Below, piece after piece: positions 27,840-38,447 of a stretch of 64,000 bases of DNA. The position numbers were made by a program, and so were the translations under genes. The notes under the pieces were generated by a model. The model was given only the letters and a program-made list of their open reading frames with translations, was not told where the DNA came from and made no database searches. This DNA comes from Escherichia phage vB_EcoS_AKFV33, in the sequence record NC_017969.1. One strand, 5' to 3'. Position 1 is the first letter of the stretch, and every line of letters begins with the position of its first letter.

Positions 27840-27915
27840 TGGTAATTAGTAGTGGATTTGAACCACTGTAGTCGCTCCGTATGAAGGAGGTGCATAACCA
27901 CTCTGCCAACTAACT
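27840..27915 (-). tRNA. tRNA-Met or Ile2 (anticodon CAT)
   Basis: hand-folded cloverleaf; T-arm AGTGG-TTCAAAT-CCACT; anticodon loop TTCATAC; CCA encoded. Confidence 0.7.
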
Positions 27916-28011
27916 GTTATGTTTTACTAGACTAAGTAAGTATTCTTTATACTCTTTAGACCAATTAGCTTTTTTAAACTTTCCTGGACGCATAGTCTTA
28001 ATTCCTAAATT

Positions 28012-28088
28012 TGGTACTCCGGGAGGGATTTAAACCCCCGATCTCTCGGTTATCAGCCGAGTGCTTTAGATCGCTAAGCTACCGAAGC
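28012..28088 (-). tRNA. tRNA-Ile (anticodon GAT)
   Basis: anticodon stem CTCGG/CCGAG, loop CTGATAA; CCA encoded. Confidence 0.75.
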
Positions 28089-28089
28089 A

Positions 28090-28317
28090 TTAACATTTCA
28101 CAGCAGAACGTTTGCCATTTCTAGGTGCACCTGGAAGTCGTGCACGTTCTGCCATTCTTCGCTTAATCTTTGAGATATTTTCTAGTGTTTGTTCTTCAGG
28201 CTTAATACCTGAAACACTACACCACTGATTACCGTCCCATGCGGTAATGATCATAACACCATTACTCATGATCTTTTCTGTAAAAGTAATCCTCATTATA
28301 GCAACTCGTCTAAGCAA
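28090..28317 (-). CDS. hypothetical protein
   Basis: 75 aa ORF. Confidence 0.4.
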   Translation of the reverse strand: MLRRVAIMRITFTEKIMSNGVMIITAWDGNQWCSVSGIKPEEQTLENISKIKRRMAERARLPGAPRNGKRSAVKC

Positions 28318-28589
28318 GAGGTATATTTAAGTTTACCATCTTTATCTACTTTGATTTCGACTTCCGCCCGTGGTACTTGACGAACTACACCATGAATCAT
28401 CTTATAGCGAATGCCTTTAGCTAATTCATGATCTTTTGGAAAGACTTGCTTAACCGTTACTACCTTGTACCCATCACGCGGTGTTAATACAACTACTTGA
28501 TCACCTTCTTTGATTTTCCAAGAGCCAGGAAATTCGTAAGTATAGCGTTGACCACCAGTTTGGAACACAACAGAAAGATAACGTTTCAT
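28296..28589 (-). CDS. hypothetical protein
   Basis: 97 aa ORF; early promoter upstream. Confidence 0.45.
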   Translation of the reverse strand: MKRYLSVVFQTGGQRYTYEFPGSWKIKEGDQVVVLTPRDGYKVVTVKQVFPKDHELAKGIRYKMIHGVVRQVPRAEVEIKVDKDGKLKYTSCLDELL

Positions 28590-28619
28590 TTGGCTTCCCT
28601 CTCATTAATTTATATAAAT

Positions 28620-28649
28620 ATTATAACAATAAATAAGAGAGAAAGCAAA
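28620..28649 (-). promoter_or_regulatory. sigma70-type early promoter
   Basis: conserved ATTATAACA..AGCAAA (reverse complement TTTGCT-n17-TATAAT). Confidence 0.5.
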
Positions 28650-28663
28650 TGAATTTTTAAATT

Positions 28664-28738
28664 TGGTGCTCCCACCAGGAATCGAACCCGGTTCAGATGC
28701 TTACAAGGCAACTGCATCGCCAACAATGCTTTAGGAGC
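28664..28738 (-). tRNA. tRNA-Thr (anticodon TGT)
   Basis: T-arm with TTCGATT loop; anticodon loop CTTGTAA; CCA encoded. Confidence 0.7.
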
Positions 28739-28747
28739 GATAGCCCG

Positions 28748-28912
28748 TTATTTCAACGGGATTTCTTTTTCAATAACAGGAGACTTATCAGTCATGACTG
28801 TCATTGCCATTTGTTGTAGAAATTCAAAGGTGAAGGCTACACGTTCTTCACCAATCTCTACTTCGACACGTTTCTTTTGTTTATCGATCTTGACTTTTAG
28901 GTTATCAGCCAT
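28748..28912 (-). CDS. small hypothetical protein (54 aa)
   Basis: unlisted ORF MADNLKVKIDKQKK... between tRNAs. Confidence 0.3.
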   Translation of the reverse strand: MADNLKVKIDKQKKRVEVEIGEERVAFTFEFLQQMAMTVMTDKSPVIEKEIPLK

Positions 28913-28928
28913 CTTCGGGTTCTCGTTG

Positions 28929-29126
28929 CTACGCTACTTCTAGCCAGTCTGGTAGAAGAAACTTTGTACGAAATTCTTCGTAAGTTTCTTTGGGATAAAA
29001 GCTAAAACCTCCTTTCTCGTCATTCAGGATAACAGAGCCGTCAGTTTGTTCGTATGCTCGGTATGTTTCTCCAATAACAATAACTCGTTTATCGGTACTT
29101 TTATTACGAAATTCAAAAACGTGCAT
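28929..29126 (-). CDS. hypothetical protein
   Basis: 65 aa ORF. Confidence 0.4.
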   Translation of the reverse strand: MHVFEFRNKSTDKRVIVIGETYRAYEQTDGSVILNDEKGGFSFYPKETYEEFRTKFLLPDWLEVA

Positions 29127-29142
29127 AACATTTCCTTAAAGT

Positions 29143-29218
29143 TGGAGCGGCTAGAGGGAATCGAACCCTACTCGGCGAGGCTTGGAAGGCCTGCGACACA
29201 ACCCGTGTGCTTAACCGC
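29143..29218 (-). tRNA. tRNA-Gly (anticodon TCC)
   Basis: anticodon loop CTTCCAA; T-loop TTCGATT; CCA encoded. Confidence 0.7.
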
Positions 29219-29226
29219 TTATTGTT

Positions 29227-29302
29227 TGGCTGGAGAAGGAGGAATCGAACCTACCATTAACGGAGTCAAAGGCCGTTGTGCTAACCGTTACACTACTCTC
29301 CA
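29227..29302 (-). tRNA. tRNA-Gln (anticodon TTG)
   Basis: anticodon loop CTTTGAC; CCA encoded. Confidence 0.7.
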
Positions 29303-29308
29303 ATTATT

Positions 29309-29384
29309 TGGCTGGAGTGCCTGGGATCGAACCAGGAACCTTCGGAGTCAGAGGCCGACGATCTGCCAATTGATCTACACTCCA
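29309..29384 (-). tRNA. tRNA-Gln (anticodon CTG)
   Basis: tandem paralog of previous; anticodon loop CTCTGAC; CCA encoded. Confidence 0.7.
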
Positions 29385-29396
29385 ATAATTTTTATT

Positions 29397-29591
29397 CTAC
29401 GGAAAAATTGTTGTTGGCTCAGATTCTTCTAAACGTTTGCCTTCATGATCTACTCGAATAACTCCGCATCCTTCGCAAATCACAACTGCACCATAACCTT
29501 CTTTGACCTCAGCTTCTGTAATCAAACCAGAAAGATCACCAGTATCTCTGCCCCACATATCAATGGAGCATTGTTTGCAGAAATCAGCCAT
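29397..29591 (-). CDS. small zinc-ribbon-like protein
   Basis: 64 aa; CKQC...CEGC. Confidence 0.4.
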   Translation of the reverse strand: MADFCKQCSIDMWGRDTGDLSGLITEAEVKEGYGAVVICEGCGVIRVDHEGKRLEESEPTTIFP

Positions 29592-29616
29592 ATTTTATTT
29601 CCTATTTAAGTTAATT

Positions 29617-29693
29617 TGGGGTGGCTAGTGGAATTCGAATCCACATAGGCCTGATTCACAATCAGGATCATTAACCAATTATGATATAGCCAC
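29617..29693 (-). tRNA. tRNA-His (anticodon GTG)
   Basis: anticodon stem CCTGA/TCAGG, loop TTGTGAA; C73 discriminator; no G at position -1 encoded. Confidence 0.75.
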
Positions 29694-29922
29694 AATTGAA
29701 AACTCGCAGGGTTAGCGAAACCTTCCTCAATTAGCATGTTCTAGAATACTAATCAAGTTATCTCCTATTGCACGCAGCTCAAGACGAGTACGAATTTTCA
29801 ATTGTGGCGGCTCTCAGAAACTCTTCTACTCTAGCCTTAGCAGCTTACTCCCGAACGCATGTCGGGGAAGTCTTACTAAGAGCTTCGAATAGCACCGTTA
29901 CACTTTGAGCCATAGATGTATC

Positions 29923-30054
29923 AAGAAGTAGAAGGACTTGAACCTTCACGAGATAGACCATTTATCTCAGCCGCTTTATGAGGTATGTTGCGGGGAGTGG
30001 ATGTTCCCCATAAACCTTTTAGGCAGCCCCGTCTACCAATTCCGGCATACTTCA
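29923..30054 (-). ncRNA. atypical tRNA-like element (T-arm-like hairpin with extra hairpins)
   Basis: T-arm GAAGG-ACTTGAA-CCTTC, 6/7 complementary acceptor-like ends ~130 nt apart; no canonical anticodon loop found. Confidence 0.25.
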
Positions 30055-30059
30055 AGATT

Positions 30060-30154
30060 TGGAGGTAGGTAAGGGGATCGAACCCTTACACCGTATCACT
30101 ACGATCAACCGATTTCAAGTCGGAGTCCAGCGCCAGCCATTGGATTGACCTACC
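30060..30154 (-). tRNA. tRNA-Ser (anticodon TGA), class II
   Basis: long variable arm; anticodon loop CTTGAAA; CCA encoded. Confidence 0.7.
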
Positions 30155-30165
30155 ATTAAGTTATT

Positions 30166-30256
30166 TGGCGGAAGAGGAGAGATTTGAACTCTCAAGCCGT
30201 TTTACCAGTCAGCCACTTTCCAAGTGGTTTTCGTCGCCAATTCGATTTGCTCTTCC
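30166..30256 (-). tRNA. tRNA-Ser (anticodon GGA), class II
   Basis: perfect 7-bp acceptor stem; anticodon loop TTGGAAA; long variable arm. Confidence 0.65.
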
Positions 30257-30292
30257 AATAATAAGATGATGCCTCTATCACACCAGGCAGTT

Positions 30293-30367
30293 ACGCCTCG
30301 CTGGGATTCGAACCCATTAAAACAGCTCAACCGAGATAGTAGGTTTAATTTACTCTGACCATCAAAT
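30293..30367 (-). ncRNA. tRNA-like fragment (T-arm and 3' acceptor half without matching 5' half)
   Basis: TTCGAAT T-loop with flanking stem, but no complementary acceptor 5' strand. Confidence 0.25.
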
Positions 30368-30368
30368 T

Positions 30369-30445
30369 TGGTGCGTGACAAGGGATTCGAACCCTCAAAA
30401 CCCGACTTCTAAGGACGGTATGTATGCCCATTCCATCAATCACGC
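30369..30445 (-). tRNA. tRNA with anticodon TAG (Leu-type anticodon, class-I architecture)
   Basis: anticodon loop CTTAGAA; short variable loop; A73 discriminator; CCA encoded. Confidence 0.6.
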
Positions 30446-30450
30446 GTATT

Positions 30451-30529
30451 TGGTGGAGAATAACGGAATCGAACCGTTCTGATGTCCTCGGTGCAAGCGA
30501 GGTGTCCACTCCATGCAGACCCATTCCCC
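30451..30529 (-). tRNA. tRNA-Ala (anticodon TGC)
   Basis: anticodon stem CCTCG/CGAGG, loop CTTGCAC; G3:U70 identity pair present. Confidence 0.75.
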
Positions 30530-30767
30530 AAATTCTTTAGTTTACTAAGGCTATTAGCTCGGCGTAACTACAGCACCTTCGCTTAGAGCGGAAGGAACTA
30601 CGTCATCTCGCAAACCCAATACACTATTCAGTTGCCGCTGAATCTAGTGGACCAATCTAGAACTTCTCCCGAATCGTAGGGATCGTGCTTTTTGGCAGCC
30701 AGTCCTAGGTCGAGCTAATACCTTAGTGAACTATGATGAGGATTTCTCCTCATCAATTTATATAAAT

Positions 30768-30797
30768 ATTATAACAAGAAATTAAGCATCAAGCAAG
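30768..30797 (-). promoter_or_regulatory. sigma70-type early promoter facing a non-coding island
   Basis: conserved promoter motif; only a 12-codon ORF, then ~200 nt of GC-richer non-coding sequence downstream. Confidence 0.45.
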
Positions 30798-31142
30798 TAC
30801 ATTTTTGCAGACTTCTTGTATTTCCTTAACATCGCTAATGAAAAGGTAATCGGAACTTCCAGAGTGCATACTAGACATTAGTACACCACTATCTGGTGCA
30901 TCTTCTTTTAACGTAATGCCTAACCAGAACTCGGCAAAACTAGGTGTTACCTCACCTTGACTTGCCTTGAATACATCGGCTTCTGTGATCTCCTGACCAG
31001 TAGAAAGTCCCATGTACGGTACGTTCAGATCAATATCTTTGTAGAACTCAGCTAAATCTTGTTCGAAGTCCCAACCTTTAGAGATAGCGAACTCCATTGT
31101 CACATGACCGAAATAACCTTGAATCTTGCTTGATAATTGCAT
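30789..31142 (-). CDS. hypothetical protein
   Basis: track ORF starts at a TTG (31148); first ATG at 31142. Confidence 0.45.
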   Translation of the reverse strand: MQLSSKIQGYFGHVTMEFAISKGWDFEQDLAEFYKDIDLNVPYMGLSTGQEITEADVFKASQGEVTPSFAEFWLGITLKEDAPDSGVLMSSMHSGSSDYLFISDVKEIQEVCKNVLA

Positions 31143-31167
31143 TTGCAATTCCTTATTTTGAGTTAAT

Positions 31168-31241
31168 TGGTACCCGGTGATAGAATCGAACTATCTCAAC
31201 CGCCATGTAAAGACGGGGTTCTCCCATTAAACTAACCGAGC
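31168..31241 (-). tRNA. tRNA-Val (anticodon TAC)
   Basis: anticodon loop TTTACAT; CCA encoded. Confidence 0.65.
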
Positions 31242-31245
31242 AAAT

Positions 31246-31324
31246 TGGTAGATCGCCTGGGACTTGAACCCAGAACCTTCCGATTAAAAGTCGGATGCTA
31301 CTAAACCTATTGAGCTAGCGATCT
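31246..31324 (-). tRNA. tRNA-Lys (anticodon TTT)
   Basis: perfect anticodon stem TCCGA/TCGGA, loop CTTTTAA; CCA encoded. Confidence 0.75.
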
Positions 31325-31513
31325 ATTAGTAACCATTGTATACTTCTTTAATAGAGTGAACTTTCAAGTAAGGGTGATTAGTACTAAACTCTGCCATTAC
31401 TTCATCCCAATTTCTACCATAATGAGCAAGTAAGGATTTTGATGTATTCTTACCTAAGCGTTTGTCACTTACTACTAATCGAAATACTTTCATTTCGAAA
31501 TCCTCTATTAAAA

Positions 31514-31591
31514 TGGAAGCGGGTGCAGGAATCGAACCTACCTCTTTCTAGCTTATGAGACTAGCGATCTCTACCAGAGATCTAACCCGCA
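31514..31591 (-). tRNA. tRNA-Met (anticodon CAT)
   Basis: anticodon loop CTCATAA; position 1:72 mismatch; CCA encoded. Confidence 0.7.
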
Positions 31592-31597
31592 ATTGTT

Positions 31598-31675
31598 TGG
31601 TCTCCGTGGGAGGATTTGAACCCCCGACCCTATCGCCCCAAACGAAACGCTCTGGCCAAACTGAGCTACACGGAG
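31598..31675 (-). tRNA. tRNA-Pro (anticodon TGG)
   Basis: perfect acceptor stem; anticodon loop TTTGGGG; CCA encoded. Confidence 0.75.
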
Positions 31676-31679
31676 AATA

Positions 31680-31838
31680 TTATTTCTTCAACCACAACAA
31701 AGATAAGCCAAGCATACTAAAGCCACTAACTAATCCGATACATTTTTCTTCTATAGTAAAAGTATCTAGATTAAATGCTGTTATAGCTATTGGCATACAC
31801 CATAATGCCATAAAAACTTGAGCTATCTTGTGTTTCAT
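31680..31838 (-). CDS. small membrane protein (52 aa)
   Basis: unlisted ORF MKHKIAQVFMALWCMPIAITAF... directly downstream of early promoter. Confidence 0.3.
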   Translation of the reverse strand: MKHKIAQVFMALWCMPIAITAFNLDTFTIEEKCIGLVSGFSMLGLSLLWLKK

Positions 31839-31870
31839 TTTGCTTTCCTTCTCTTCACTTTATAAAATAT

Positions 31871-31900
31871 ATTATACAGATAGTTAAGCAGAATAGCAAA
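31871..31900 (-). promoter_or_regulatory. sigma70-type early promoter
   Basis: ATTATACAG..AGCAAATGAATTTTT motif. Confidence 0.5.
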
Positions 31901-32048
31901 TGAATTTTTAATAAATTTACTTATTGTGTAGGCCACCTGGAGGCTACCAACCCCACGGCTGACAAAGAAGTTTGCGAGACCTCTCTTAAATGCCAGAATA
32001 GACCCGCCGATCTATCGGAACCTACATAATAAGTAAACTTTATAGTGT

Positions 32049-32169
32049 CATTCTAGACAGGACTCGAACCTGTTATCACTTGTGCGGACTTACGAGAACC
32101 ATTCTTTCACTCGAATCGAACGAGCTTCTGCCCTCGCCAAGCTGGTTTCCCCACCAACCACGCTAGAAT
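32049..32169 (-). ncRNA. long tRNA-like RNA (~121 nt): perfect 7-bp acceptor-like stem, D-arm, T-arm and an extra internal TTCGATT hairpin
   Basis: ATTCTAG/CTAGAAT ends, T-arm ACAGG-TTCGAGT-CCTGT; no canonical anticodon loop. Confidence 0.35.
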
Positions 32170-32291
32170 GTTTGATTGTTTTCAGTGCAAGAGTCCGAGT
32201 CTTGGACACGACCGCTTTGCAAGTACATAGGCAGCTTATCATGAGTCAGCACTTCCGAATTGCTAGCTCCGTGTTCTGCACTGAAATTTTA

Positions 32292-32639
32292 TTAGTTTAA
32301 CCTTAAAGTATTATCTACTTCACCATTAATTGTTCGGCATTCCTCTGGAATTGCTGGAGTAGCCTTGTATTCCCACCACTCAGCTCCATCATATTCCCCA
32401 CGTTCTAGCCAGGTTCCATCGGCAAACCATACATTACCATAAAGTAGTTGTCCACCATAACCAGAATCATACTCAAAGTCTAGGTTATTAAGAAAATCCC
32501 CAATATCTTCTTCTGTATACCCCAGAGGTAATACCCAAACTTTTTTGTCCCCATAATACCCGAATTCTATTTTAATACACTTAACTTCAGAATTAGTATT
32601 TTTTAAGGCAAGTAACAACTCTTCTTTAGCATTACGCAT
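32292..32639 (-). CDS. hypothetical protein
   Basis: 115 aa ORF. Confidence 0.45.
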   Translation of the reverse strand: MRNAKEELLLALKNTNSEVKCIKIEFGYYGDKKVWVLPLGYTEEDIGDFLNNLDFEYDSGYGGQLLYGNVWFADGTWLERGEYDGAEWWEYKATPAIPEECRTINGEVDNTLRLN

Positions 32640-32665
32640 AGTATATTTCTCGTGCTAGTTTAGTT

Positions 32666-32741
32666 TGGTACACCCACTAGGACTTGAACCTAGAACCCTC
32701 CGCTTAAGAGGCGGTAGCTCTAACCATTGAGCTATGGATGT
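32666..32741 (-). tRNA. tRNA-Lys (anticodon CTT)
   Basis: anticodon loop CTCTTAA; CCA encoded. Confidence 0.65.
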
Positions 32742-32918
32742 ATTAAATTACTTTTTCCAGTTCATCAGCTATGGCTTTGATTTTTTCAAAGTTTACATCA
32801 CTAATAATGATACCTTCTAGTGACAGAGATATTCTAGCATTTTTCGTAGCAGATTCTTTTATCTGCTCTATCTCTTCTGGAGTAAACTCTCTACGTTCCA
32901 TAGCTAACCTACCTTATT

Positions 32919-33292: not shown

Positions 33293-33375
33293 TGGCGGGC
33301 CGTGTAGGATTCGAACCTACGTTGTCTTTCGACATGGATTAACAGTCCACCGCCAAACCGCTTGGCTAACGACCC
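33293..33375 (-). tRNA. tRNA-Asn (anticodon GTT) with extended variable region
   Basis: D-stem GCCA/TGGC, anticodon loop CTGTTAA; 83 nt. Confidence 0.6.
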
Positions 33376-33381
33376 TGAATT

Positions 33382-33456
33382 TGGAGCACCCTGCTGGAAT
33401 TGAACCAACCTAGACGATTTTGCAGACCGTCACCTAAGCCACTCGGACAAGGATGC
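33382..33456 (-). tRNA. tRNA-Cys (anticodon GCA)
   Basis: anticodon loop CTGCAAA; CCA encoded. Confidence 0.65.
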
Positions 33457-33458
33457 AA

Positions 33459-33647
33459 TTATTCTTTATCTTCCGGCCATGAAAAGTGGATTAGATTTGC
33501 TGGCCCAAGAGTCCTGCAATAATATCCATCACCATGATCATAACCACATGTTCCACATTCACACATCTTAAATTCACCAAACTTAGTGAATAAGATTTCT
33601 GTGTCACAACAGTCGAACTTAACTAATTTAGCTTTTGGCTTCTTCAT
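33459..33647 (-). CDS. Cys-rich small protein
   Basis: 62 aa; CCDTE..CECGTCGYDHGDGYYC. Confidence 0.4.
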   Translation of the reverse strand: MKKPKAKLVKFDCCDTEILFTKFGEFKMCECGTCGYDHGDGYYCRTLGPANLIHFSWPEDKE

Positions 33648-33886
33648 TTAACACGCTCCGGTAGATCTTCGAGGTTATATTCCGTTGCTACACCAGCAGC
33701 ATCTAATAGTAAACCCATATGTTTAAGGATTTTAGTGATAGATTCACCTTCTGCTTCTTCTACAAAAGAACGTAGATGAACAAAGTCAATACCCCCATCC
33801 ATACCAGAGAAAATGTTTAGTAAGCGGAGCATTACCAGCTTACGTTCATTCAATTCTTGTTCTGTCATGTTGCTTCTCCAGTTCAA
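33644..33886 (-). CDS. hypothetical protein
   Basis: 80 aa ORF; early promoter upstream. Confidence 0.4.
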   Translation of the reverse strand: MNWRSNMTEQELNERKLVMLRLLNIFSGMDGGIDFVHLRSFVEEAEGESITKILKHMGLLLDAAGVATEYNLEDLPERVK

Positions 33887-33918
33887 TTTATGTAATTATT
33901 ATACAGAACTTTTGGAAA

Positions 33919-34206
33919 CTAAGCAACTACATTTTTTAAGAATTTGATACCTTTCTTTTTCTTCTTATATTTCCACGTTAATGGATTCTGTCGATTGTGA
34001 ACGCTTGAGATCTTTGTCTCGTCAAAGTTCTTCAATATCATGTAATCACAGGATAATTGTTCTAATGGAATGTGATTACCGTCAAAAGCATATACATAAG
34101 GCTGTTGACTAGCACGATAATGATAGACTTTGTTAATTCTACGTTTCAGCGACTTATCCGCGCAGTAAATAAAGAAGTTTTCAGGATGCATCAGCAGCTC
34201 CTTCAA
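33919..34206 (-). CDS. hypothetical protein
   Basis: 95 aa ORF (TTG start in track). Confidence 0.4.
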   Translation of the reverse strand: MKELLMHPENFFIYCADKSLKRRINKVYHYRASQQPYVYAFDGNHIPLEQLSCDYMILKNFDETKISSVHNRQNPLTWKYKKKKKGIKFLKNVVA

Positions 34207-34208
34207 TT

Positions 34209-34284
34209 TGGTGCACCCTGTTCGTATCGAACGAACCTCTCAAGCTCTTCAGGCAAGCGCTAATCCATCTCAGCTAAAGGTGCA
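34209..34284 (-). tRNA. tRNA-Phe (anticodon GAA), tentative
   Basis: anticodon loop CTGAAGA with weak stem; T-stem GTTCG/CGAAC. Confidence 0.5.
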
Positions 34285-34289
34285 AATTT

Positions 34290-34366
34290 TGGCAAACCTA
34301 CTAGGACTCGAACCTAGACCGTACGGTTTTGGAGACCGACATGCTGTCCAGTAACACTCTAGGAAT
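34290..34366 (-). tRNA. tRNA-Trp (anticodon CCA)
   Basis: anticodon loop CTCCAAA; two mismatches in acceptor stem. Confidence 0.7.
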
Positions 34367-34374
34367 GCAGAAAT

Positions 34375-34451
34375 TGGCGTCCTGTGCGGGGATCGAACCC
34401 GCAAATCCTACCTTGAAAGGGTAGTGACTTTACCAGTTTGTCTAACAGGGC
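34375..34451 (-). tRNA. tRNA-Glu (anticodon TTC)
   Basis: perfect anticodon stem CTACC/GGTAG, loop CTTTCAA. Confidence 0.75.
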
Positions 34452-34458
34452 TTAAATT

Positions 34459-34549
34459 TGGTGTTGGATGATGGAGTCGAACCACCCGAGACCCTTCCGA
34501 GTCGGCAGATTTACAGTCTGCTTCGCTACCTCTACGATACTAATCCAAC
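34459..34549 (-). tRNA. tRNA-Tyr (anticodon GTA), class II
   Basis: perfect acceptor and anticodon stems (GCAGA/TCTGC), loop CTGTAAA, long variable arm. Confidence 0.8.
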
Positions 34550-34677
34550 ATATTTAAAAATACTAAAATACTAGTTTAAACACTTTTAAATATGTTTCCA
34601 AATTAGATAACTATTATACCAAGTTTTAAGGCACTGAGCAAGTCAAATTTTAAAGAACTTGCTCAGTGCTGTATTAG

Positions 34678-34953
34678 TTAGTCGAACTTAGGAGTGACAG
34701 CTAAGGAGAATGGAAGTTCGAAAACTTCTTCACCCTCATCACTAACAGTAATTACACGGCCTTTAAGTTCAGACATTGAAATATCAATATCAGCTTTTGC
34801 ATCTGGAGCCATTCCAGCTTCAACACATTTAGCTTTAACTTCCGGCAGAAGTTCTACATCGTAGAAATAAAGCCATTCAATCTCACCTTCCCAGCCTTCC
34901 CAGGATTTACAGATTGCACTTTCAATACCAGTTGCTATAACACGATTTTGCAT
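34678..34953 (-). CDS. hypothetical protein
   Basis: 91 aa ORF. Confidence 0.45.
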   Translation of the reverse strand: MQNRVIATGIESAICKSWEGWEGEIEWLYFYDVELLPEVKAKCVEAGMAPDAKADIDISMSELKGRVITVSDEGEEVFELPFSLAVTPKFD

Positions 34954-35043
34954 TAGTTAACTCCTTCATCAATTTATATAACTATTATATCAGAAATTTA
35001 AAGCAAAAGGCAAGTACATTTTTAAAAATTCTATTTGGAGGAG

Positions 35044-35250
35044 CTAAACTCCAGATTCTTCAGCCAAGTCTAGACTAATAAGAGATATAGCCATAATTGC
35101 TGCTGTGTGCTCTTTTTCTCCAGTCTCTTTAGCTAGAGTTATAATATCAAGAATTTGCTTATGAAAGTCTGCAACCTCTTGAGTCATACCTGCTTCAGCA
35201 ATCATGCCTTTAAGCATGAAACGTTGTGCGGTAATTTCAGGATTAGCCAT
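35044..35250 (-). CDS. hypothetical protein
   Basis: 68 aa ORF. Confidence 0.4.
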   Translation of the reverse strand: MANPEITAQRFMLKGMIAEAGMTQEVADFHKQILDIITLAKETGEKEHTAAIMAISLISLDLAEESGV

Positions 35251-35425
35251 GTTGTTTCTCCAGTTTCATCTTTAATAGTCTACAAATAAAATCAATGTCT
35301 TCATCCGTGCCTAAATCTCTATCTTCAAGAGTTGCCTTGAAGTTTTTAGTCAATTCCATGAGGATAACTTCTCTAGAACGACGTGTTGGCGGAGGTGGAG
35401 GTCTATACATCTTATTTCCTTAATT

Positions 35426-35502
35426 TGGTAGGGGTGGTGGGATTCGAACCCACAAAACCTGAATTTTAAGTCCAGTACCTATGCCAATTCGATTACACCC
35501 CC
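35426..35502 (-). tRNA. tRNA with anticodon TAA (Leu-type anticodon, class-I architecture)
   Basis: anticodon stem CTGGA/TTCAG, loop CTTAAAA; A73; CCA encoded. Confidence 0.6.
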
Positions 35503-35603
35503 GTGTAATCAGTTTATTAGTTGATACATATTATAGCCTAGTGAAAATCCTACTACTAGTCCCACAAACCAACCAATATAATAATCTTTTAGTTTCACAG
35601 ATA

Positions 35604-35789
35604 TTACCCTCTTTCAATATCTAGAGAAATACCACAGTTAGGATTAATACCTGTACCATTGCAATTTGGGCAAACCCAGATATTGCAAAAAGTATCTCCT
35701 GCTTCTGCATCAGAACTTTCACCAATTCCCCTACACTCAGGGCAGGCACATTCTTCTAGCTCTTGCTTGAGTTCTTGAAACTTGGACAT
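35604..35789 (-). CDS. DnaJ-type zinc-finger small protein
   Basis: 61 aa; CPECRGIG and CPNCNGTG repeats. Confidence 0.45.
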   Translation of the reverse strand: MSKFQELKQELEECACPECRGIGESSDAEAGDTFCNIWVCPNCNGTGINPNCGISLDIERG

Positions 35790-35798
35790 ATAGTCTCC

Positions 35799-35987
35799 TT
35801 AGTCAATTACTTTTGAGGCCTCAAGGTAGTCGATATAGTGTACGTTTTCTACCGTAATCATATAATCTGCCACTTTATCCATAGCTTGGGCTTCAGAGGT
35901 AGCTCTGGCTAACCTATATCCTTTTTTATATTCATCAGGGTATTCTCTATCTTGAATAAACACAACATAAACTATGTATAATTCCAC
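35799..35987 (-). CDS. small hypothetical protein
   Basis: track ORF 35799-36134 reads through a tRNA gene; trimmed to GTG with SD AGGGGA. Confidence 0.35.
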   Translation of the reverse strand: MELYIVYVVFIQDREYPDEYKKGYRLARATSEAQAMDKVADYMITVENVHYIDYLEASKVID

Positions 35988-36007
35988 TTGTAATCCCCTA
36001 ATTAAGT

Positions 36008-36085
36008 TGGTGGCTCCCCGAGGATTCGAACCTACGTACCTTCCAGTTATGAGCTGGGTGCTCATACCATATGAGCTTGAGAACC
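36008..36085 (-). tRNA. tRNA-Met or Ile2 (anticodon CAT)
   Basis: D-stem GCTC/GAGC, anticodon loop CTCATAA; position cross-checked against ORF-track frame. Confidence 0.65.
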
Positions 36086-36091
36086 AGAATT

Positions 36092-36180
36092 TGGCGGAAG
36101 AAGTGGGAATCGAACCCACAAGGCTATATTTCAAACCGACAGATTAGCAATCTGCTGCAATACCGTTATGCTATTCTTCC
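36092..36180 (-). tRNA. tRNA-Ser (anticodon GCT), class II
   Basis: perfect 7-bp acceptor stem; anticodon loop TTGCTAA; long variable arm. Confidence 0.75.
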
Positions 36181-36201
36181 GAATTTATAAGATATATTAT
36201 A

Positions 36202-36720
36202 TTAGAAATTTAGCTTCATAGCAAGAAAATTTTTCAAGTTTTCGGTAGACATCTCATCCACATCTACAGGAGAAACAAAGCCGTTTAATTTTCTAGCAAA
36301 TTTTTCACCCGCAGGATCGTTATTCCCGACAGCTACCAATTTAAAAGGTAATAATTTCAGTTGCTTTAATAACGCTTTTCCTGGAGAAGAACCCAACATT
36401 GCTAGGGCTGGATAACCAGCGTTATGTAACGCAACTGCCTTAAATACAGATTCAGCGATCAATACTACTTTTTCATCTCCATTGAGAGTTTCTAATCCCC
36501 ATACACACTGGGTAGTAGAATAGGTAAAATATTTAGCTTCAAAGGGACACTTACCATGACCTTTTGGAGCAGAAGGATTATAAGTTTGATAGCCTCTCAA
36601 CATCCCAGAGAAATCATACAACGGGACTGTTAGCCATCCTTCCGGACTTAACCAGCAATGATATTTATCTGCATCAAATCCTCTAGATAGAAGATGTTGT
36701 GTTAATTCATCAACACCCAT
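36202..36720 (-). CDS. small TOPRIM-like domain protein
   Basis: 172 aa; VVLIAESVFKA..YPALAMLGSS..LVAVGNNDPAGEKFARKL resembles the TOPRIM acidic motif arrangement; call is low-certainty. Confidence 0.5.
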   Translation of the reverse strand: MGVDELTQHLLSRGFDADKYHCWLSPEGWLTVPLYDFSGMLRGYQTYNPSAPKGHGKCPFEAKYFTYSTTQCVWGLETLNGDEKVVLIAESVFKAVALHNAGYPALAMLGSSPGKALLKQLKLLPFKLVAVGNNDPAGEKFARKLNGFVSPVDVDEMSTENLKNFLAMKLNF

Positions 36721-36816
36721 GTTTAATCTCCTAGTTAGTTTTATAATTACATTATATAGAAAAGCCCTGCGCTCTCCAGGAAACGCAGGGCTTACTTTAG
36801 ATGTTACATGCGGGTA

Positions 36817-37764
36817 TTATTTATTACGCATATCCATGATCATTTGGCCATCATAACCAGTACCAACTACCGTCTGTGGTACACCACCTTGATACTTCTG
36901 AGCACGGATCATTTCAACTTCCAGTTGCTTCCAGCGAATCATCTCAGGAGTAATGGTACGTTGCAATGCGGCGTTAGCTTCAGCTTCTTTCTTAGCTGCG
37001 TACAGTTTAGCATCTGCGTCACGTTCATTAGCAATAGCTTGGTTGTTGCGAGCTTCACGATCTGCTTCTGCTTGTTTAACTTTTTGCTGTGCTTCCTGTT
37101 CAACACGAGCTAATTCAGCTTTAGCAGCATTAACCTGTTCTTCACGAACTTTGGTATTCTGTACCTGTTCCATGATTACCGGTGGCAAAGTAATATCCTG
37201 AAGGAACACCTGCTTAACTGTGTAACCATATGGGCGTGCATACTCTTCAACTTCCTGTTGAATTGCAGTTTGCAATTGAGCCTGAATTTTAGCATCAAAT
37301 AAATCTTGTGCTTTAGGTACAGACTTACCAAACTCACGAATAGTAGACAGTAATTTTTCAGTTACATATTTGTCTAACGCTTGATCCTGAGTACCTGCAT
37401 TAATACGGTTAATCGGTGCTTTAGAACCATCAAACTGCAACATAACAGTCAGGTCAACAGTGGATTTAAACTTATCCTGACTAGGAACCTGAAGTTTATC
37501 TAATTTTAGAGCAATATCTTTAGTACTAAAAGTATCAAAAGAAGCAAAAGGATTTACAATATGGAAACCAGGTAATACTGGATTAGGATCAACTTTACCC
37601 AAGAAAGTCTGGGTCTTAACAGTACCGTCTTGAACAACGGTATAGGAGTTAAGAGCTAGAACTAAACCTGCTAAACCAACTACAGCACCAATCCCCCAAC
37701 GTTTAATAGTACGAATTACTTTCTGCTCAGAAGTCAGTTCTTTCATATTTTTAGTATTAAACAT
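36817..37764 (-). CDS. SPFH/band-7 family membrane protein (prohibitin/HflC-like)
   Basis: 315 aa; N-terminal TM segment, SPFH-like core, C-terminal Ala/Glu/Gln-rich coiled coil. Confidence 0.65.
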   Translation of the reverse strand: MFNTKNMKELTSEQKVIRTIKRWGIGAVVGLAGLVLALNSYTVVQDGTVKTQTFLGKVDPNPVLPGFHIVNPFASFDTFSTKDIALKLDKLQVPSQDKFKSTVDLTVMLQFDGSKAPINRINAGTQDQALDKYVTEKLLSTIREFGKSVPKAQDLFDAKIQAQLQTAIQQEVEEYARPYGYTVKQVFLQDITLPPVIMEQVQNTKVREEQVNAAKAELARVEQEAQQKVKQAEADREARNNQAIANERDADAKLYAAKKEAEANAALQRTITPEMIRWKQLEVEMIRAQKYQGGVPQTVVGTGYDGQMIMDMRNK

Positions 37765-37798
37765 ATATTTCCTTTGTTTTAGTTACAGTTAATAAAAT

Positions 37799-37873
37799 TG
37801 GCCGAGGTGACAGGATTCGAACCTGCATAAAGGAATTTAGAAGACTCCTGCCTCTCCCTTAGACTACACCCCG
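37799..37873 (-). tRNA. tRNA-Arg (anticodon TCT)
   Basis: anticodon loop CTTCTAA; CCA encoded. Confidence 0.7.
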
Positions 37874-38375
37874 TTTAAGTATTTTTAAGAACTCTCGTAA
37901 AAACTCTTAAAAATACAGACGATACCGGGAGAGTCATAAGTCTCACTCATTAAGTATTTCAAGACAAAATACAGTAACGTCTATTATTTTCCAGTTTAAG
38001 TCAGGGTGACTTAGTGGTTATGTCCTGCGGTATATTGAGGACTCGGTTAGGCTTGGGGTCATGACTTCCCGCCTTTTGCTGCTACTCAACAGGAATTATC
38101 GCGAATTACCTGTGCTATTGTGCACCATTAGTGACATCTCTCATGTCAGCATTTCCCACTTTGTGGATAGCTTGAAAAACTACTCCGATGTGGAGAAAGA
38201 ACTTCACTATCCTAGAATACCTTCTAAAGTTCTTCTTTAGCCTGGACATAGTTAAACCGTAATAAAACTATTCAGCAGACTGGTTGGTTAGTCTGGAACC
38301 AACTACCGCGTGGTTTAGGCAGTGCGCAACTAACCTCGGAAGCTTTTACGTTAAAAGCATCAGTTATCCAGTTCT

Positions 38376-38447
38376 TACCGACCGTAGGATTCGAACCTAC
38401 ATCTTCCACCAGTTACGGCTTGATAATACCAATTATACTAGGACGGC
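38376..38447 (-). ncRNA. tRNA-like element with canonical T-arm but no resolvable anticodon arm
   Basis: T-arm GTAGG-TTCGAAT-CCTAC; acceptor pairing 6/7. Confidence 0.3.

What the first reader, a model, noticed from the sequence alone, without database searches (positions are those of the whole stretch)
27840..38447. tRNA cluster of 27 canonical tRNAs covering all 20 amino acids, interleaved with small ORFs
Hand folding of minus-strand T-arm signatures gives tRNAs with anticodons for Met/Ile (CAT x3), Ile, Thr, Gly, Gln (x2), His, Ser (x3), Ala, Val, Lys (TTT and CTT), Pro, Asp, Asn, Cys, Phe, Trp, Glu, Tyr, Arg and two Leu-type anticodons. Most encode the 3' CCA. Large phage tRNA sets can also shield translation from host anticodon nucleases, so isoacceptor variants such as Lys-TTT are worth inspecting.
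Basis: partly seen in the sequence, partly recalled or inferred. Interest (0 to 1): 0.5.

Follow-up and report, generated by a model that had tools for sequence, protein, structure and literature searches.

The report
T5-type phage tRNA gene array
This is the well-known tRNA-rich "anti-defence" region of a T5-like phage of E. coli and Salmonella: 27 tRNA genes for all 20 amino acids that keep phage translation running when the host's own tRNAs are cut by defence nucleases. It is real, but already described and tested in near-identical phages.

Summary
All tRNA signals in the 64-kb window lie at 27840-38448 on the minus strand.

- **Count:** ARAGORN default finds 23 and Rfam finds 24; together they give 24 canonical tRNAs. 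Gly-UCC, Ser-UGA and Ser-GGA appear only at relaxed thresholds, but homology and compensatory base changes support them. The total is 27 tRNAs, all with an encoded CCA, covering 20 amino acids.
- **Extra element:** the one ending at 38447 is a CCA-less tRNA-like relic, not a decoder.
- **Source:** the region is 96% identical to Escherichia phage IME178 and collinear with the T5 and SP15 tRNA-rich regions. T5's promoters and stable RNAs are present.
- **Published tests apply:** the Tyr and Asn genes are 100% identical to SP15's, and Lys-UUU is 97% identical. SP15 tRNA-Tyr defeats retron-Eco7 and SP15 tRNA-Lys defeats PrrC170. The 172-aa ORF is 98% identical to the anti-retron protein Rad.
the shielding idea is right, and already published.
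- **New detail:** 11 tRNAs are deeply divergent alleles of T5's (44-73% identity) in a 90-100% identical backbone. Lys, Thr, Asn and Tyr have host-identical anticodon loops; their differences lie in stems, the D-loop or the variable arm. This Lys-UUU allele keeps two of three mapped PARIS determinants.

Low novelty.

The parts
27840..27915 (-). tRNA-Met (CAT), elongator type; corresponds to T5 tRNAM
   Evidence: ARAGORN; Rfam 48.5 bits; 99% identical to T5; CCA encoded
28012..28088 (-). tRNA-Ile (GAT)
   Evidence: 64.7 bits; 99% to T5
28664..28738 (-). tRNA-Thr (TGT), the T5 allele. Its U36AAGCA lacks the AriB UAAUC motif
   Evidence: (97% to T5); PMC12409363
29143..29218 (-). tRNA-Gly (TCC); found only at relaxed thresholds
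   Evidence: ARAGORN -ps; Rfam clan hit 30.4 bits; 99% identical to T5 tRNA-Gly1 (suppressor note in the T5 record)
29227..29302 (-). tRNA-Gln (TTG); non-T5 allele (59% to T5)
29309..29384 (-). tRNA-Gln (CTG); non-T5 allele (46% to T5)
29617..29693 (-). tRNA-His (GTG); no G at position -1 (the base there is T)
   Evidence: (100% to T5)
29695..30056 (-). Homologues of T5 stable RNAs: RNAIII (29695-29800), RNAI (29805-29911, acceptor-like stem plus GCCA end) and tRNA-like RNA1 (29912-30056)
   Evidence: blastn to AY543070 features, 99/90/85% identity; folds
30060..30154 (-). tRNA-Ser (TGA), class II; non-T5 allele; relaxed threshold
   Evidence: Rfam clan hit 37.6 bits; compensatory pairs
30166..30256 (-). 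tRNA-Ser (GGA), class II; non-T5 allele; relaxed threshold
   Evidence: ARAGORN -ps90; Rfam clan hit 20.7 bits; compensatory pairs; annotated as tRNA-Ser in T5_ev212
30369..30445 (-). tRNA-Leu (TAG), 77 nt, short variable loop; non-T5 allele
30451..30529 (-). tRNA-Ala (TGC) with G3-U70; non-T5 allele
   Evidence: ARAGORN (missed by Rfam); structure
30549..30720 (-). Homologue of T5 stable RNA2H
   Evidence: 96.5% to T5
31168..31241 (-). tRNA-Val (TAC)
   Evidence: 93% to T5
31246..31324 (-). tRNA-Lys (TTT), 79 nt; SP15-type allele with U16, U39, G41
   Evidence: 60.9 bits; 70% to T5; 169 phage records; 97% to SP15
31514..31591 (-). Initiator-like tRNA (CAT), with a U1-U72 mismatch and U73
   Evidence: 100% identical to T5 tRNAfM
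31598..31675 (-). tRNA-Pro (TGG); non-T5 allele (73% to T5)
31925..32170 (-). Homologues of T5 stable RNAIV (31925-32027) and tRNA-like RNA2 (32046-32170). ARAGORN's 'Arg-GCG' 32101-32168 is a piece of RNA2, not a tRNA
32666..32741 (-). tRNA-Lys (CTT). Absent from T5, and E. coli K-12 has no such isoacceptor among those fetched. Carries G39
   Evidence: 64.8 bits; 10 of 31 related loci
32919..32995 (-). tRNA-Asp (GTC)
   Evidence: 99% to T5
33218..33290 (-). Homologue of T5 RNA3: a tRNA-like RNA with a 7-bp acceptor-like stem and an ACCA end
   Evidence: 100% to T5; fold; present in 27 of 32 related loci
33293..33375 (-). tRNA-Asn (GTT), 83 nt with a 12-nt variable loop; SP15 allele; its anticodon stem-loop is nearly identical to the host's
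   Evidence: 44% to T5; 100% to SP15
33382..33456 (-). tRNA-Cys (GCA); rare allele (2 of 26 related loci)
34209..34283 (-). tRNA-Phe (GAA)
   Evidence: 97% to T5
34290..34366 (-). tRNA-Trp (CCA), with two U-U mismatches in the acceptor stem
   Evidence: 36.3 bits; 53% to T5
34375..34451 (-). tRNA-Glu (TTC)
   Evidence: 96% to T5
34459..34549 (-). tRNA-Tyr (GTA), class II; SP15 allele. Its anticodon stem-loop is identical to E. coli's but its variable arm differs
   Evidence: (100% to SP15); PMC11555353, PMC13096335
35426..35502 (-). tRNA-Leu (TAA), 77 nt, short variable loop; absent from T5
   Evidence: 57.4 bits; 21 related loci
36008..36085 (-). tRNA (CAT), annotated Ile2 in T5
   Evidence: Rfam 38.2 bits; ARAGORN -ps; 100% identical to T5 tRNAI2; compensatory A-U to G-C change between alleles
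36092..36180 (-). tRNA-Ser (GCT), class II
   Evidence: 60.5 bits; 100% to T5
36202..36720 (-). Toprim-like 172-aa protein; homologue of SP15 ORF75 'Rad' (retron anti-defence) and of T5.076
   Evidence: 98% identity; Pfam Toprim_2 weak hit; PHROG 849; bioRxiv 10.1101/2023.03.15.532788, PMC11555353
34678..35410 (-). Three small ORFs (91, 68 and 55 aa) homologous to SP15 ORF71/72/73. The SP15 fragment carrying these rescued phage from retron Ec83 in the preprint
   Evidence: tblastn 95/74/92%; bioRxiv 10.1101/2023.03.15.532788
37799..37873 (-). tRNA-Arg (TCT), the only Arg decoder in the array
   Evidence: (100% to T5)
37874..38495 (-). Homologue of T5 stable 'RNAX'. It contains the CCA-less tRNA-like element 38375-38448
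   Evidence: (35.5 bits)
26557..38570 (-). Span holding homologues of nine T5 early promoters: P10a 26557-26630, P11 28595-28668, P13b 30742-30796, P13a 31844-31918, P14b 33872-33946, P14a 34590-34659, P15c 34958-35032, P15b 36169-36244, P16-17 38509-38570. A strong hairpin terminator lies at 36762-36793
   Evidence: blastn 89-99% to AY543070 promoter features; TTGCTA-17-TATAAT matches and a 13-bp terminator stem

Best explanation
This is the tRNA-rich region (also called the anti-defence island) of a Tequintavirus, that is, a T5-like phage.

What the sequence shows:
- There are 27 tRNA genes, all on one strand and all with an encoded CCA.
- Most sit in tight groups separated by 4-12 nt.
- They are interleaved with small ORFs and with tRNA-derived stable RNAs.
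- The array lies downstream of conserved T5 early sigma-70 promoters.

Inferred from T5 biology and host tRNA processing:
- The array is transcribed early as polycistronic precursors.
- Host RNase P and 3' endo- and exonucleases trim these precursors. The A/U-rich 'AAUU' trailers after CCA fit this.

Shown in near-identical phages and inferred here: the products form an almost self-sufficient decoder set, 57 of 61 sense codons if U34 reads whole four-codon boxes; only CGN Arg is missing. This set keeps phage protein synthesis going when host tRNAs are cleaved by abortive-infection nucleases such as PARIS AriB, PrrC, retron-Eco7/Septu PtuAB and OLD. Rescue works in two ways. Some phage tRNAs are poor nuclease substrates because of changes in the anticodon stem, D-loop or variable arm. 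Others are simply made in large amounts from strong promoters.

At least one neighbouring ORF (Rad) is a protein anti-defence factor, so tRNAs and ORFs together form a counter-defence island. Adaptation to the codon usage of an AT-rich genome is a likely secondary benefit.
For: - **Identity of the locus:** 96% nucleotide identity to phage IME178 and 613 matching phage records, nearly all T5-like. The region is collinear with the T5, T5_ev212, IME178 and SP15 annotations.
- **T5 features present:** all eight T5 stable RNAs and nine T5 promoters are found. The best consensus promoters are TTGCTA-17-TATAAT on the tRNA strand.
- **tRNA calls:**
- **Decoding capacity:** 45 of 61 codons under strict wobble (78.2% of 12,469 phage codons), or 57 of 61 (96.6%) with U34 four-way reading.
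- **Function shown in relatives:**
  - T5 Lys, Thr and Asn against PARIS.
  - SP15 Tyr against retron-Eco7 and SP15 Lys against PrrC170.
  - Thr against OLD.
  - The Tyr variable loop as the cleavage target.
- **Link to this window:** the Tyr and Asn genes are 100% identical to SP15's, and Lys-UUU is 97% identical with the same anticodon stem-loop. Thr is 97% identical to T5's. The Rad homologue is 98% identical.
- **Distance from host tRNAs:** window tRNAs are only 57-77% identical to their E. coli K-12 cognates.
Against: - Nothing was measured for this phage itself. Expression, processing, charging and resistance to any nuclease are all inferred.
- Several alleles look host-like at the sites that matter.
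  - Lys-UUU keeps U16 and U39 and changes only A41 to G. T5's resistant allele has C16, A39 and C41.
  - Asn keeps the U36AAUCC motif found in the E. coli target.
  - Tyr has a host-identical anticodon stem-loop.
  - This haplotype may therefore not resist PARIS.
- Amino-acid identity is uncertain for the short-arm Leu tRNAs and for His without G-1.
- T5 mutants that lack most of the array grow on laboratory hosts, so the region is dispensable without defences.
- A bacterial Schlafen nuclease also cuts T5-encoded tRNAs, so the shield is not universal.
Confidence: 0.88

Rival explanations
1. Codon-usage compensation is the main function. The AT-rich phage (39% G+C) brings tRNAs for codons the host reads poorly, boosting late-gene translation, and defence evasion is incidental.
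For: - The window is 39% G+C, and phage ORFs favour A/U-ending codons: AAA 69%, UUA 26% of Leu, AGA+AGG 22% of Arg, AUA 14% of Ile.
- The array carries U34 tRNAs for every four-codon box, plus Arg-UCU, Leu-UAA and an Ile2-type CAT, which read codons that are rare in E. coli.
Against: - The set covers all 20 amino acids, not just rare codons. It includes tRNAs for codons the host reads well, such as Lys-UUU, Asp, Glu, Phe and Trp.
- It lacks a decoder for CGN, which makes up 77% of phage Arg codons.
- The PARIS paper states that codon-frequency data do not directly support this hypothesis.
- Single tRNAs rescue phages from specific nucleases.
- The two functions are not mutually exclusive.
Confidence: 0.3
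2. The array replaces a decaying host tRNA pool. T5-type phages degrade host DNA early, so no new host tRNA is made, and the phage array simply maintains tRNA supply through the infection cycle.
For: - A near-complete decoder set (57 of 61 codons) and strong early promoters fit a general supply role.
- E. coli tRNA-Tyr driven by the phage promoter rescues as well as the phage tRNA does, so quantity matters.
- Degradation of host DNA by the T5 A1 nuclease is mentioned.
Against: - tRNAs are stable on the time scale of a lytic cycle (general knowledge, not tested here).
- Deletion mutants grow normally on defence-free hosts.
- A pure supply role does not explain deep allele diversity within otherwise conserved flanks.
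Confidence: 0.2
3. Many of the genes are non-functional relics or selfish cassettes, spread by recombination or homing endonucleases and carried without benefit.
For: - The array contains clear tRNA relics: RNA1, RNA2, RNA3 and the element at 38375-38448.
- Several tRNAs have structural defects.
- T5 has three HNH endonuclease genes inside its array.
- The whole region is a recombination mosaic.
Against: - All 27 keep CCA, intact anticodon loops and paired stems.
- Within an allele class they are 98-100% conserved across dozens of phages, more than the neighbouring ORFs.
- Stems change by compensatory substitutions.
- Identity elements are kept: Ala G3-U70, Gln U1-A72/G73, Pro C1-G72, Cys U73, Gly U73.
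- This window has no homologue of the T5 heg genes and no HNH Pfam hit among its ORFs.
Confidence: 0.04

Closest known systems
Bacteriophage T5 tRNA gene region (AY543070, about 28.0-41.6 kb)
   Same: - Same position, strand and gene order.
- 15 tRNAs (Met, Ile, Thr, Gly, His, Val, fMet-like, Asp, Phe, Glu, Ile2-CAT, Ser-GCT and Arg among them) are 93-100% identical.
- Same stable RNAs (RNAI, III, IV, 1, 2, 2H, 3, X), promoters and flanking ORFs (GrcA-like, SPFH, cell-wall hydrolase).
   Different: - 11 slots carry a different allele, 44-73% identical: Gln x2, Ser-UGA, Ser-GGA, Leu-UAG, Ala, Lys-UUU, Pro, Asn, Trp and Tyr. Cys is also a different allele (68%).
- The window adds Lys-CUU and Leu-UAA.
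- It lacks the HNH endonuclease genes hegA, hegC and hegD, and T5.069 and T5.077-079.
- T5's PARIS-resistant Lys allele (C16/A39/C41) is replaced by a U16/U39/G41 allele.
Escherichia phage SP15 tRNA-rich region / anti-defence island (NC_048627; Azam et al. 2024)
   Same: - Tyr, Asn, Trp, Phe, Leu-UAA, His, Gln-UUG, Arg and the fMet-like tRNA are 100% identical; Lys-UUU is 97%.
- Rad (ORF75) is 98% identical, and ORF71-73 homologues are present.
- These are the alleles that were tested experimentally.
   Different: - SP15 has different Ser-UGA, Pro and Cys alleles.
- SP15 has no Lys-CUU.
- SP15 has extra plus-strand genes between Rad and the SPFH gene.
Escherichia phage IME178 (MZ398246), nearest database relative
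   Same: 96% identity over 96% of the 12-kb query. It also carries Lys-CUU, Leu-UAA and the same Lys-UUU allele at 100%.
   Different: It has different Thr, Cys, Trp, Glu and Tyr alleles. Its annotation lists only about 21 tRNAs.
T4-type phage tRNA cluster with the SegB homing endonuclease
   Same: Clustered phage tRNA genes that counter tRNA-cleaving defences. One example is T6 tRNA-Tyr against Septu.
   Different: The T4 cluster has far fewer tRNA genes (as I recall, eight; not checked here), sits in a different phage family, and is tied to a homing endonuclease that is absent from this array.
Mycobacteriophage tRNA arrays with anticodon-loop mutations (van den Berg et al. 2023, PMC10264068)
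   Same: The same proposed logic: phage tRNAs evade host tRNA nucleases.
   Different: That model rests on anticodon-loop substitutions. Here 12 of 26 comparable loops are identical to the host's, including all four experimentally implicated tRNAs.

Membership tests
tRNA (Rfam RF00005 / cloverleaf decoder) | Scores at or above the family gathering score, or is called by a dedicated tRNA finder at default settings | tested here: met
   24 of the 27 genes are called by ARAGORN default and/or Rfam at or above 29 bits. Gly-TCC, Ser-TGA and Ser-GGA are found only with relaxed settings.
tRNA (Rfam RF00005 / cloverleaf decoder) | Seven-nt anticodon loop with U33 and a purine at position 37, four paired arms, and a 3' CCA (encoded or added) | tested here: met
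   All 27 genes have this layout and an encoded CCA. The 28th element (38375-38448) fails: no CCA, and a 3-bp stem with a 6-nt loop.
tRNA (Rfam RF00005 / cloverleaf decoder) | Helices maintained by compensatory substitutions among homologues | tested here: met
   Ser-UGA has 10 of 28 pairs and Ser-GGA 11 of 21 pairs with changes on both sides. The Ile2-CAT anticodon stem switches A-U to G-C between alleles. This was not tested for monomorphic genes.
tRNA (Rfam RF00005 / cloverleaf decoder) | Expressed, processed and aminoacylated with the amino acid implied by the anticodon | not testable with these tools
   The T5 GenBank notes record suppressor activity for some identical genes, such as Gly1 and Ile2. 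Charging of the short-arm Leu tRNAs and of His without G-1 is uncertain.
Tequintavirus tRNA-rich region / anti-defence island | High nucleotide identity and collinearity with the T5 or SP15 region, between the GrcA-like gene and the cell-wall hydrolase gene | tested here: met
   The flanking genes are identified by Pfam.
Tequintavirus tRNA-rich region / anti-defence island | T5 stable RNAs and early promoters interspersed with the tRNA genes | tested here: met
   Eight of eight stable RNAs at 85-100% identity. Nine promoters at 89-99% identity.
Tequintavirus tRNA-rich region / anti-defence island | Presence of the anti-retron protein Rad (SP15 ORF75) | tested here: met
   98% identity over 172 aa.
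Tequintavirus tRNA-rich region / anti-defence island | The region is dispensable on defence-free hosts but required on hosts with tRNA-cleaving defences | not testable with these tools
   Shown for T5 and SP15 deletion mutants, not for this phage.
Nuclease-resistant phage tRNA variants (PARIS-resistant T5 tRNA-Lys type) | Substitutions at the mapped AriB determinants: U16 to C, U39 to A, A41 to C | tested here: not met
   The window Lys-UUU has U16, U39 and G41, so only position 41 differs from the E. coli target. The allele is 70% identical to T5's. Resistance cannot be assumed. Distal determinants exist, so sensitivity cannot be assumed either.
Nuclease-resistant phage tRNA variants (anticodon-loop mutation model) | The anticodon loop (positions 32-38) differs from the host cognate | tested here: inconclusive
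   14 of 26 comparable loops differ, mostly at position 32 or 38, and 12 are identical. The identical ones include Lys-UUU, Thr, Asn and Tyr.

The most novel reading that the evidence does not exclude
The array is not a fixed gene set. It is a pool of exchangeable single-gene cassettes. Each anticodon slot holds up to seven deeply divergent allele classes: below 88% identity between classes and typically 45-75%, but 98-100% within a class. These classes reassort almost freely, even between genes 11 nt apart. This would be expected if diverse tRNA-cleaving defences keep several alleles in circulation.

On this reading each haplotype has its own evasion spectrum. This window's haplotype carries SP15-type Lys-UUU, Asn and Tyr, T5-type Thr, and an extra Lys-CUU with G39. 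It would be predicted to resist PrrC and retron-Eco7, but to be more exposed to PARIS than T5 is. The Lys-CUU would then act as a partial backup for AAG codons.
Probability: 0.35. Interest if true: 0.5.

Novelty: already known. Interest (0 to 1): 0.25.

Why it matters
As a discovery it matters little. The T5 tRNA region has been known for a long time (the T5 record already annotates its tRNAs, stable RNAs and promoters). Since 2023-2026 it has also been a textbook case of phage tRNAs cancelling tRNA-cleaving immunity.

The useful content is at the allele level. The experimentally characterised T5 tRNA-Lys is a minority allele: it appears in 2 of 26 sampled genes, both from T5 itself. The allele in this window is the common one, found in 20 of 26 sampled genes and 169 phage records. 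It has been tested only against PrrC170, not against PARIS. Knowing which allele classes resist which nucleases would help predict host range and defence sensitivity of T5-like phages, many of which are being developed for Salmonella and E. coli biocontrol.

Tried and rejected
1. **ARAGORN 'tRNA-Arg(GCG)' at 32101-32168 (-ps90).** Rejected. It has no CCA and broken stems, and it lies inside the homologue of T5 tRNA-like RNA2.
2. **Element 38375-38448 as a 'Ser-ACT' decoder.** Rejected as a tRNA. It has A33 in ARAGORN's register, or a 6-nt loop by RNAfold, and no CCA.
3. **Spurious relaxed-threshold calls in related loci.** A 92-nt 'Gly-TCC', a 97-nt 'Gln-TTG' and a 68-nt 'Ser-GCT' were excluded from the allele counts.
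4. **HNH homing endonucleases as drivers within this window.** There are no blastn hits to T5 hegA, hegC or hegD, and no HNH Pfam hits among 29 ORFs.
5. **Using Bas34 (SelmaRatti) to infer PARIS sensitivity.** Bas34 is PARIS-sensitive even though it encodes tRNA-Lys. However, it carries a third Lys allele (G39, 82% identical to T5's), so nothing transfers to this window.
6. **The idea that mosaicism is confined to tRNA genes.** Rejected. Neighbouring ORFs are also mosaic; for example ORF68 has a median 80% identity and ORF119 has only 1 of 12 hits at 90% or above. What is specific to the tRNAs is the bimodal pattern: near-identity within a class and deep divergence between classes.
7. **PDB sequence search with the Rad homologue.** It gave no meaningful hit.
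8. **Consensus promoter scan.** Overall it is no richer than shuffled sequence (31 found against 32.3 expected). Only the four 10-of-12 minus-strand matches that coincide with T5-annotated promoters were used.

Full report

Yes. ARAGORN at default settings finds 23 tRNA genes, all on the minus strand between 27840 and 37873, and none elsewhere in the 64-kb window. Rfam's tRNA model at its gathering score finds 24, with E-values from 8e-12 to 6e-3. It adds a CAT tRNA at 36011-36085 and an odd element at 38376-38447, and it misses Ala at 30451-30529.

At default thresholds the union is 24 canonical tRNAs covering 19 amino acids. Three more genes appear only when ARAGORN's threshold is lowered: Gly-UCC (29143-29218), Ser-UGA (30060-30154) and Ser-GGA (30166-30256). 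They also show as sub-threshold Rfam clan hits of 30.4, 37.6 and 20.7 bits. I accept all three for the following reasons.
- Gly is 99% identical to T5 tRNA-Gly1. The T5 GenBank record annotates that gene as an effective suppressor after anticodon replacement.
- The two Ser genes keep a class II cloverleaf through compensatory changes across alleles and the E. coli cognates. Ten of 28 and 11 of 21 predicted pairs have changes on both sides.
- Both Ser genes are annotated as tRNA-Ser in a relative.

All 27 encode CCA.

It has no CCA, and its anticodon arm is a 3-bp stem with a 6-nt loop.

**2. What is it?**

The 12 kb around the cluster is 96% identical to Escherichia phage IME178. It matches 613 phage records, almost all T5-like phages of Salmonella, Escherichia and Klebsiella. 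The region is collinear with the annotated tRNA regions of T5 (AY543070), T5_ev212, IME178 and SP15.

Other T5 features are present:
- Every stable RNA annotated in the T5 record has a homologue, at 85-100% identity.

| T5 stable RNA | Window coordinates |
|---|---|
| RNAIII | 29695-29800 |
| RNAI | 29805-29911 |
| RNA1 | 29912-30056 |
| RNA2H | 30549-30720 |
| RNAIV | 31925-32027 |
| RNA2 | 32046-32170 |
| RNA3 | 33218-33290 |
| RNAX | 37874-38495 |

- Nine T5 early promoters are conserved at 89-99% identity. Four of them are the best sigma-70 consensus matches on the tRNA strand, reading TTGCTA-17-TATAAT.
- The flanks encode a GrcA-like glycyl-radical protein, an SPFH/Band-7 protein, a YqeY-like protein, a SleB-like hydrolase and a cREC_REC-domain protein.

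About 22 small minus-strand ORFs fill the gaps between tRNA groups. Most belong to phage-only families of unknown function, but some have known roles:
- The 172-aa Toprim-like ORF (36202-36720) is 98% identical to SP15 ORF75. That protein is the determinant letting SP15 evade retrons Eco2 and Eco7. The preprint names it Rad and reports that it reduces retron ncRNA.
- ORFs at 34678-35410 are homologues of SP15 ORF71-73. The preprint implicates these against retron Ec83.

**3. Anatomy of the array**

Most genes sit in tight groups with 4-12-nt spacers:
- Ser-GCU / CAT
- Tyr / Glu / Trp / Phe
- Cys / Asn
- Pro / fMet-like
- Lys-UUU / Val
- Ala / Leu-UAG
- Ser-GGA / Ser-UGA
- Gln-CUG / Gln-UUG / Gly

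Nearly every CCA is followed by an A/U-rich trailer, typically AAUU. That fits endonucleolytic 3' processing of polycistronic precursors, but this step is inferred.

The anticodon set has one U34 tRNA for each four-codon box, plus G34 or C34 tRNAs for the split boxes. Using 58 ORFs and 12,469 codons from the window:
- Under strict wobble it reads 45 of 61 sense codons, or 78.2% of phage codons.
- If U34 reads whole boxes it reads 57 of 61, or 96.6%.
- The only family with no phage decoder is CGN, which is 77% of phage Arg codons.

Classical identity elements are kept: Ala G3-U70, Gln U1-A72/G73, Pro C1-G72/A73, Cys and Gly U73, and Leu and Tyr A73.

Several genes are unorthodox:
- Both Leu tRNAs are 77 nt with a GUUUU variable loop, but a Leu-type D-arm.
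- Asn has a 12-nt variable loop.
- Lys-UUU has an 11-nt D-loop.
- Trp has two U-U mismatches in the acceptor stem.
- The initiator-like CAT has U1-U72 and U73 and lacks the three G-C pairs in its anticodon stem.
- His has T rather than G at position -1.

**4. How it most likely works**

The defence-evasion role is shown in near-identical phages and inferred here.
- **PARIS.** Its nuclease AriB cuts E. coli tRNA-Lys(UUU) between positions 40 and 41. T5 tRNA-Lys is not cut and rescues infection. Full rescue also needs T5 Thr(UGU) and Asn(GUU).
- **Retron-Eco7 and PrrC170.** SP15 tRNA-Tyr rescues from retron-Eco7. This depends partly on the strong phage promoter, because E. coli tRNA-Tyr under that promoter also rescues. 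SP15 tRNA-Lys rescues T1 and T7 from PrrC170, while E. coli tRNA-Lys does so poorly.
[quoted passage not shown] - **Limits.** A bacterial Schlafen nuclease cuts both host and T5 tRNAs.

The window's Tyr and Asn genes are 100% identical to SP15's. Lys-UUU is 97% identical with the same anticodon stem-loop, and Thr is 97% identical to T5's. The published results for Tyr (retron-Eco7), Lys (PrrC170) and Thr therefore carry over with little extrapolation.

**5.

I fetched the E. coli K-12 cognate for every anticodon and compared them with the window genes. Overall identity is 57-77%. Twelve of 26 anticodon loops are identical to the host's, including Lys-UUU, Thr, Asn and Tyr. Loop inspection alone would have missed all four proven cases.

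Mapped PARIS determinants:

| tRNA-Lys(UUU) | Position 16 | Position 39 | Position 41 |
|---|---|---|---|
| E. coli | U | U | A |
| T5 | C | A | C |
| This window | U | U | G |

- In E. coli tRNA-Lys, U39 to A abolishes cleavage, A41 to C reduces it, and U16 to C impairs it.
- The window's Asn keeps U36AAUCC, as in the E. coli target. T5's Asn does not.
- The window's Thr (U36AAGCA) lacks the motif.
- Tyr has a 17-of-17 host-identical anticodon stem-loop but a different variable arm.
- The extra Lys-CUU (32666-32741), absent from T5, has G39.

Restoring the E. coli cleavage site in T5 tRNA-Lys did not make it cleavable. Distal features therefore matter, and I cannot predict how this allele behaves with PARIS.

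**6. Allele mosaic**

Against T5, individual tRNA genes are replaced within a conserved backbone.

| Divergent gene | Identity to T5 | Conserved neighbours |
|---|---|---|
| Lys-UUU | 70% | Val 93%, downstream ORF 90% |
| Pro | 73% | fMet-like tRNA 100% |
| Trp | 53% | Phe 97%, Glu 96% |
| Tyr | 67% | Glu 96% |
| Asn | 44% | RNA3 100% |

I collected 39 related loci from IMG/VR and ran ARAGORN on them and on the GenBank loci. I then clustered genes by anticodon at 88% identity across 31 T5-like loci.
- Several slots have many allele classes: Leu-UAG 7, Ala 6, Tyr 5, and Lys-UUU, Pro, Glu and Gln-UUG 4 each.
- His, Val, Phe, Trp and Leu-UAA each form a single class; Arg-UCU has one outlier gene among 30.
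- The window-type Lys-UUU is the common allele: 20 of 26 sampled genes, and 169 phage records by megablast. T5's allele appears only in T5 itself.
- Over nine slots, 23 complete loci give 20 different haplotypes. All four combinations occur for Ser-GGA and Ser-UGA, which lie 11 nt apart.

The neighbouring ORFs are also mosaic, so recombination is a property of the whole region. What stands out for the tRNAs is the bimodal pattern: 98-100% identity within a class and deep divergence between classes. In four full-text searches I did not find this allele-class picture described, although the presence and absence of tRNAs across 250 T5-like phages has been tabulated. I therefore offer it only as the 'novel case'.

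**7. Verdict**

The finding is correct and its interpretation is sound, but it is a known feature of a known phage genus with near-identical sequences in public databases. It is of low interest as a discovery. It has modest value as a worked example of allele-level variation in a counter-defence tRNA array.

Noticed in passing
window 36202-36720 (-): This Toprim-like 172-aa ORF sits directly upstream of tRNA-Ser(GCU). It is 98% identical to SP15 ORF75, 'Rad', a retron anti-defence protein reported to deplete retron ncRNA. So at least one of the 'small ORFs' is a known protein counter-defence gene. The alignment to SP15 continues upstream to 36759, so the true start may lie before the ATG at 36720.
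   Followed up: yes
window 39690-40007 (-): A 105-aa protein with a confident Pfam cREC_REC hit (cyclic-phosphate processing receiver domain, 56.8 bits against a cutoff of 27), homologous to T5.084. As I recall, this domain has been linked to RNA-repair systems acting on 2',3'-cyclic phosphate ends (not checked here). It lies just beside a tRNA array that counters tRNA nucleases.
   Followed up: partly
window 38562-38996 (-): A 144-aa protein with a weak YqeY/GatB-like hit (18.4 bits, below the cutoff) and a strong PHROG 'tRNA amidotransferase' match. It may be a tRNA-binding protein at the edge of the array.
   Followed up: partly
window 29695-30056, 30549-30720, 31925-32170, 33218-33290, 37874-38495 (-): Homologues of the T5 'stable RNAs of unknown function' are present.
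- RNAI and RNA3 end in an acceptor-like stem followed by GCCA or ACCA.
- RNA1, RNA2 and RNAX contain T-arm-like hairpins (GGUUCAAGUCC, GGUUCGAGUCC).
- RNA1 has a tRNA-Leu-type D-loop.
- None matches an Rfam family.
- They are among the most constant elements of the region. RNA3 has a median 100% identity in 27 of 32 related loci, and RNA2 98% in 27 loci.
   Followed up: partly
window 29617-29694 (-): tRNA-His has T, not G, at position -1, while keeping C73. It is 100% identical to T5's, and the T5 record annotates the gene one nucleotide longer at the 5' end. As I recall, E. coli HisRS relies on G-1 for recognition (not checked here), so how this tRNA is charged is unclear.
   Followed up: partly
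window 30369-30445 and 35426-35502 (-): Both Leu tRNAs are 77 nt, with a 5-nt variable loop (GUUUU) instead of the long arm of bacterial tRNA-Leu. They still have a Leu-type 3-bp D-stem, an 11-nt D-loop and A73. In related phages the Leu-UAG slot alternates between this short form (17 of 27 genes) and long-arm forms of 81-87 nt.
   Followed up: partly
window 27840-37873 (-), 3' flanks of tRNAs: About 20 of the 27 CCA ends are followed directly by AAU(U/A) or AAC. This recurring A/U-rich trailer may be a processing signal.
   Followed up: no
L028:15015-15091 (+) (IMGVR_UViG_2974654585): One T5-like genome carries the Trp tRNA of this window with a single change, anticodon CCA to CTA. That makes it a potential amber-suppressor tRNA in the Trp slot.
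   Followed up: partly
L026, L032, L039, L053 and others (related loci): Some relatives carry extra tRNAs absent here: Arg-ACG, Gly-GCC and Thr-CGT. Arg-ACG would fill this phage's only decoding gap, the CGN codons.
   Followed up: no
window 36762-36793 (both strands): A 13-bp G+C-rich hairpin terminator lies between the Rad-like gene and the SPFH gene. It matches the position of T5's 'efficient bidirectional terminator'. The plus-strand genes it serves in T5 and SP15 (T5.077-079) are missing here.
   Followed up: partly
window 27054-27422 (-) and 36817-37764 (-): A GrcA-like glycyl-radical cofactor protein (Pfam Gly_radical, 66.5 bits) and a 315-aa SPFH/Band-7 membrane protein bracket or interrupt the array. 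Both are conserved across T5-like phages.
   Followed up: no
window 32666-32741 (-) and related loci: tRNA-Lys(CUU) occurs in 10 of 31 sampled T5-like loci. It never occurs together with the T5-type (A39) Lys-UUU allele or the GCGGA/UCCGU-stem allele. Nine of the ten cases pair with a window-type Lys-UUU allele, and the tenth pairs with a singleton C39 allele. The numbers are too small to test.
   Followed up: partly
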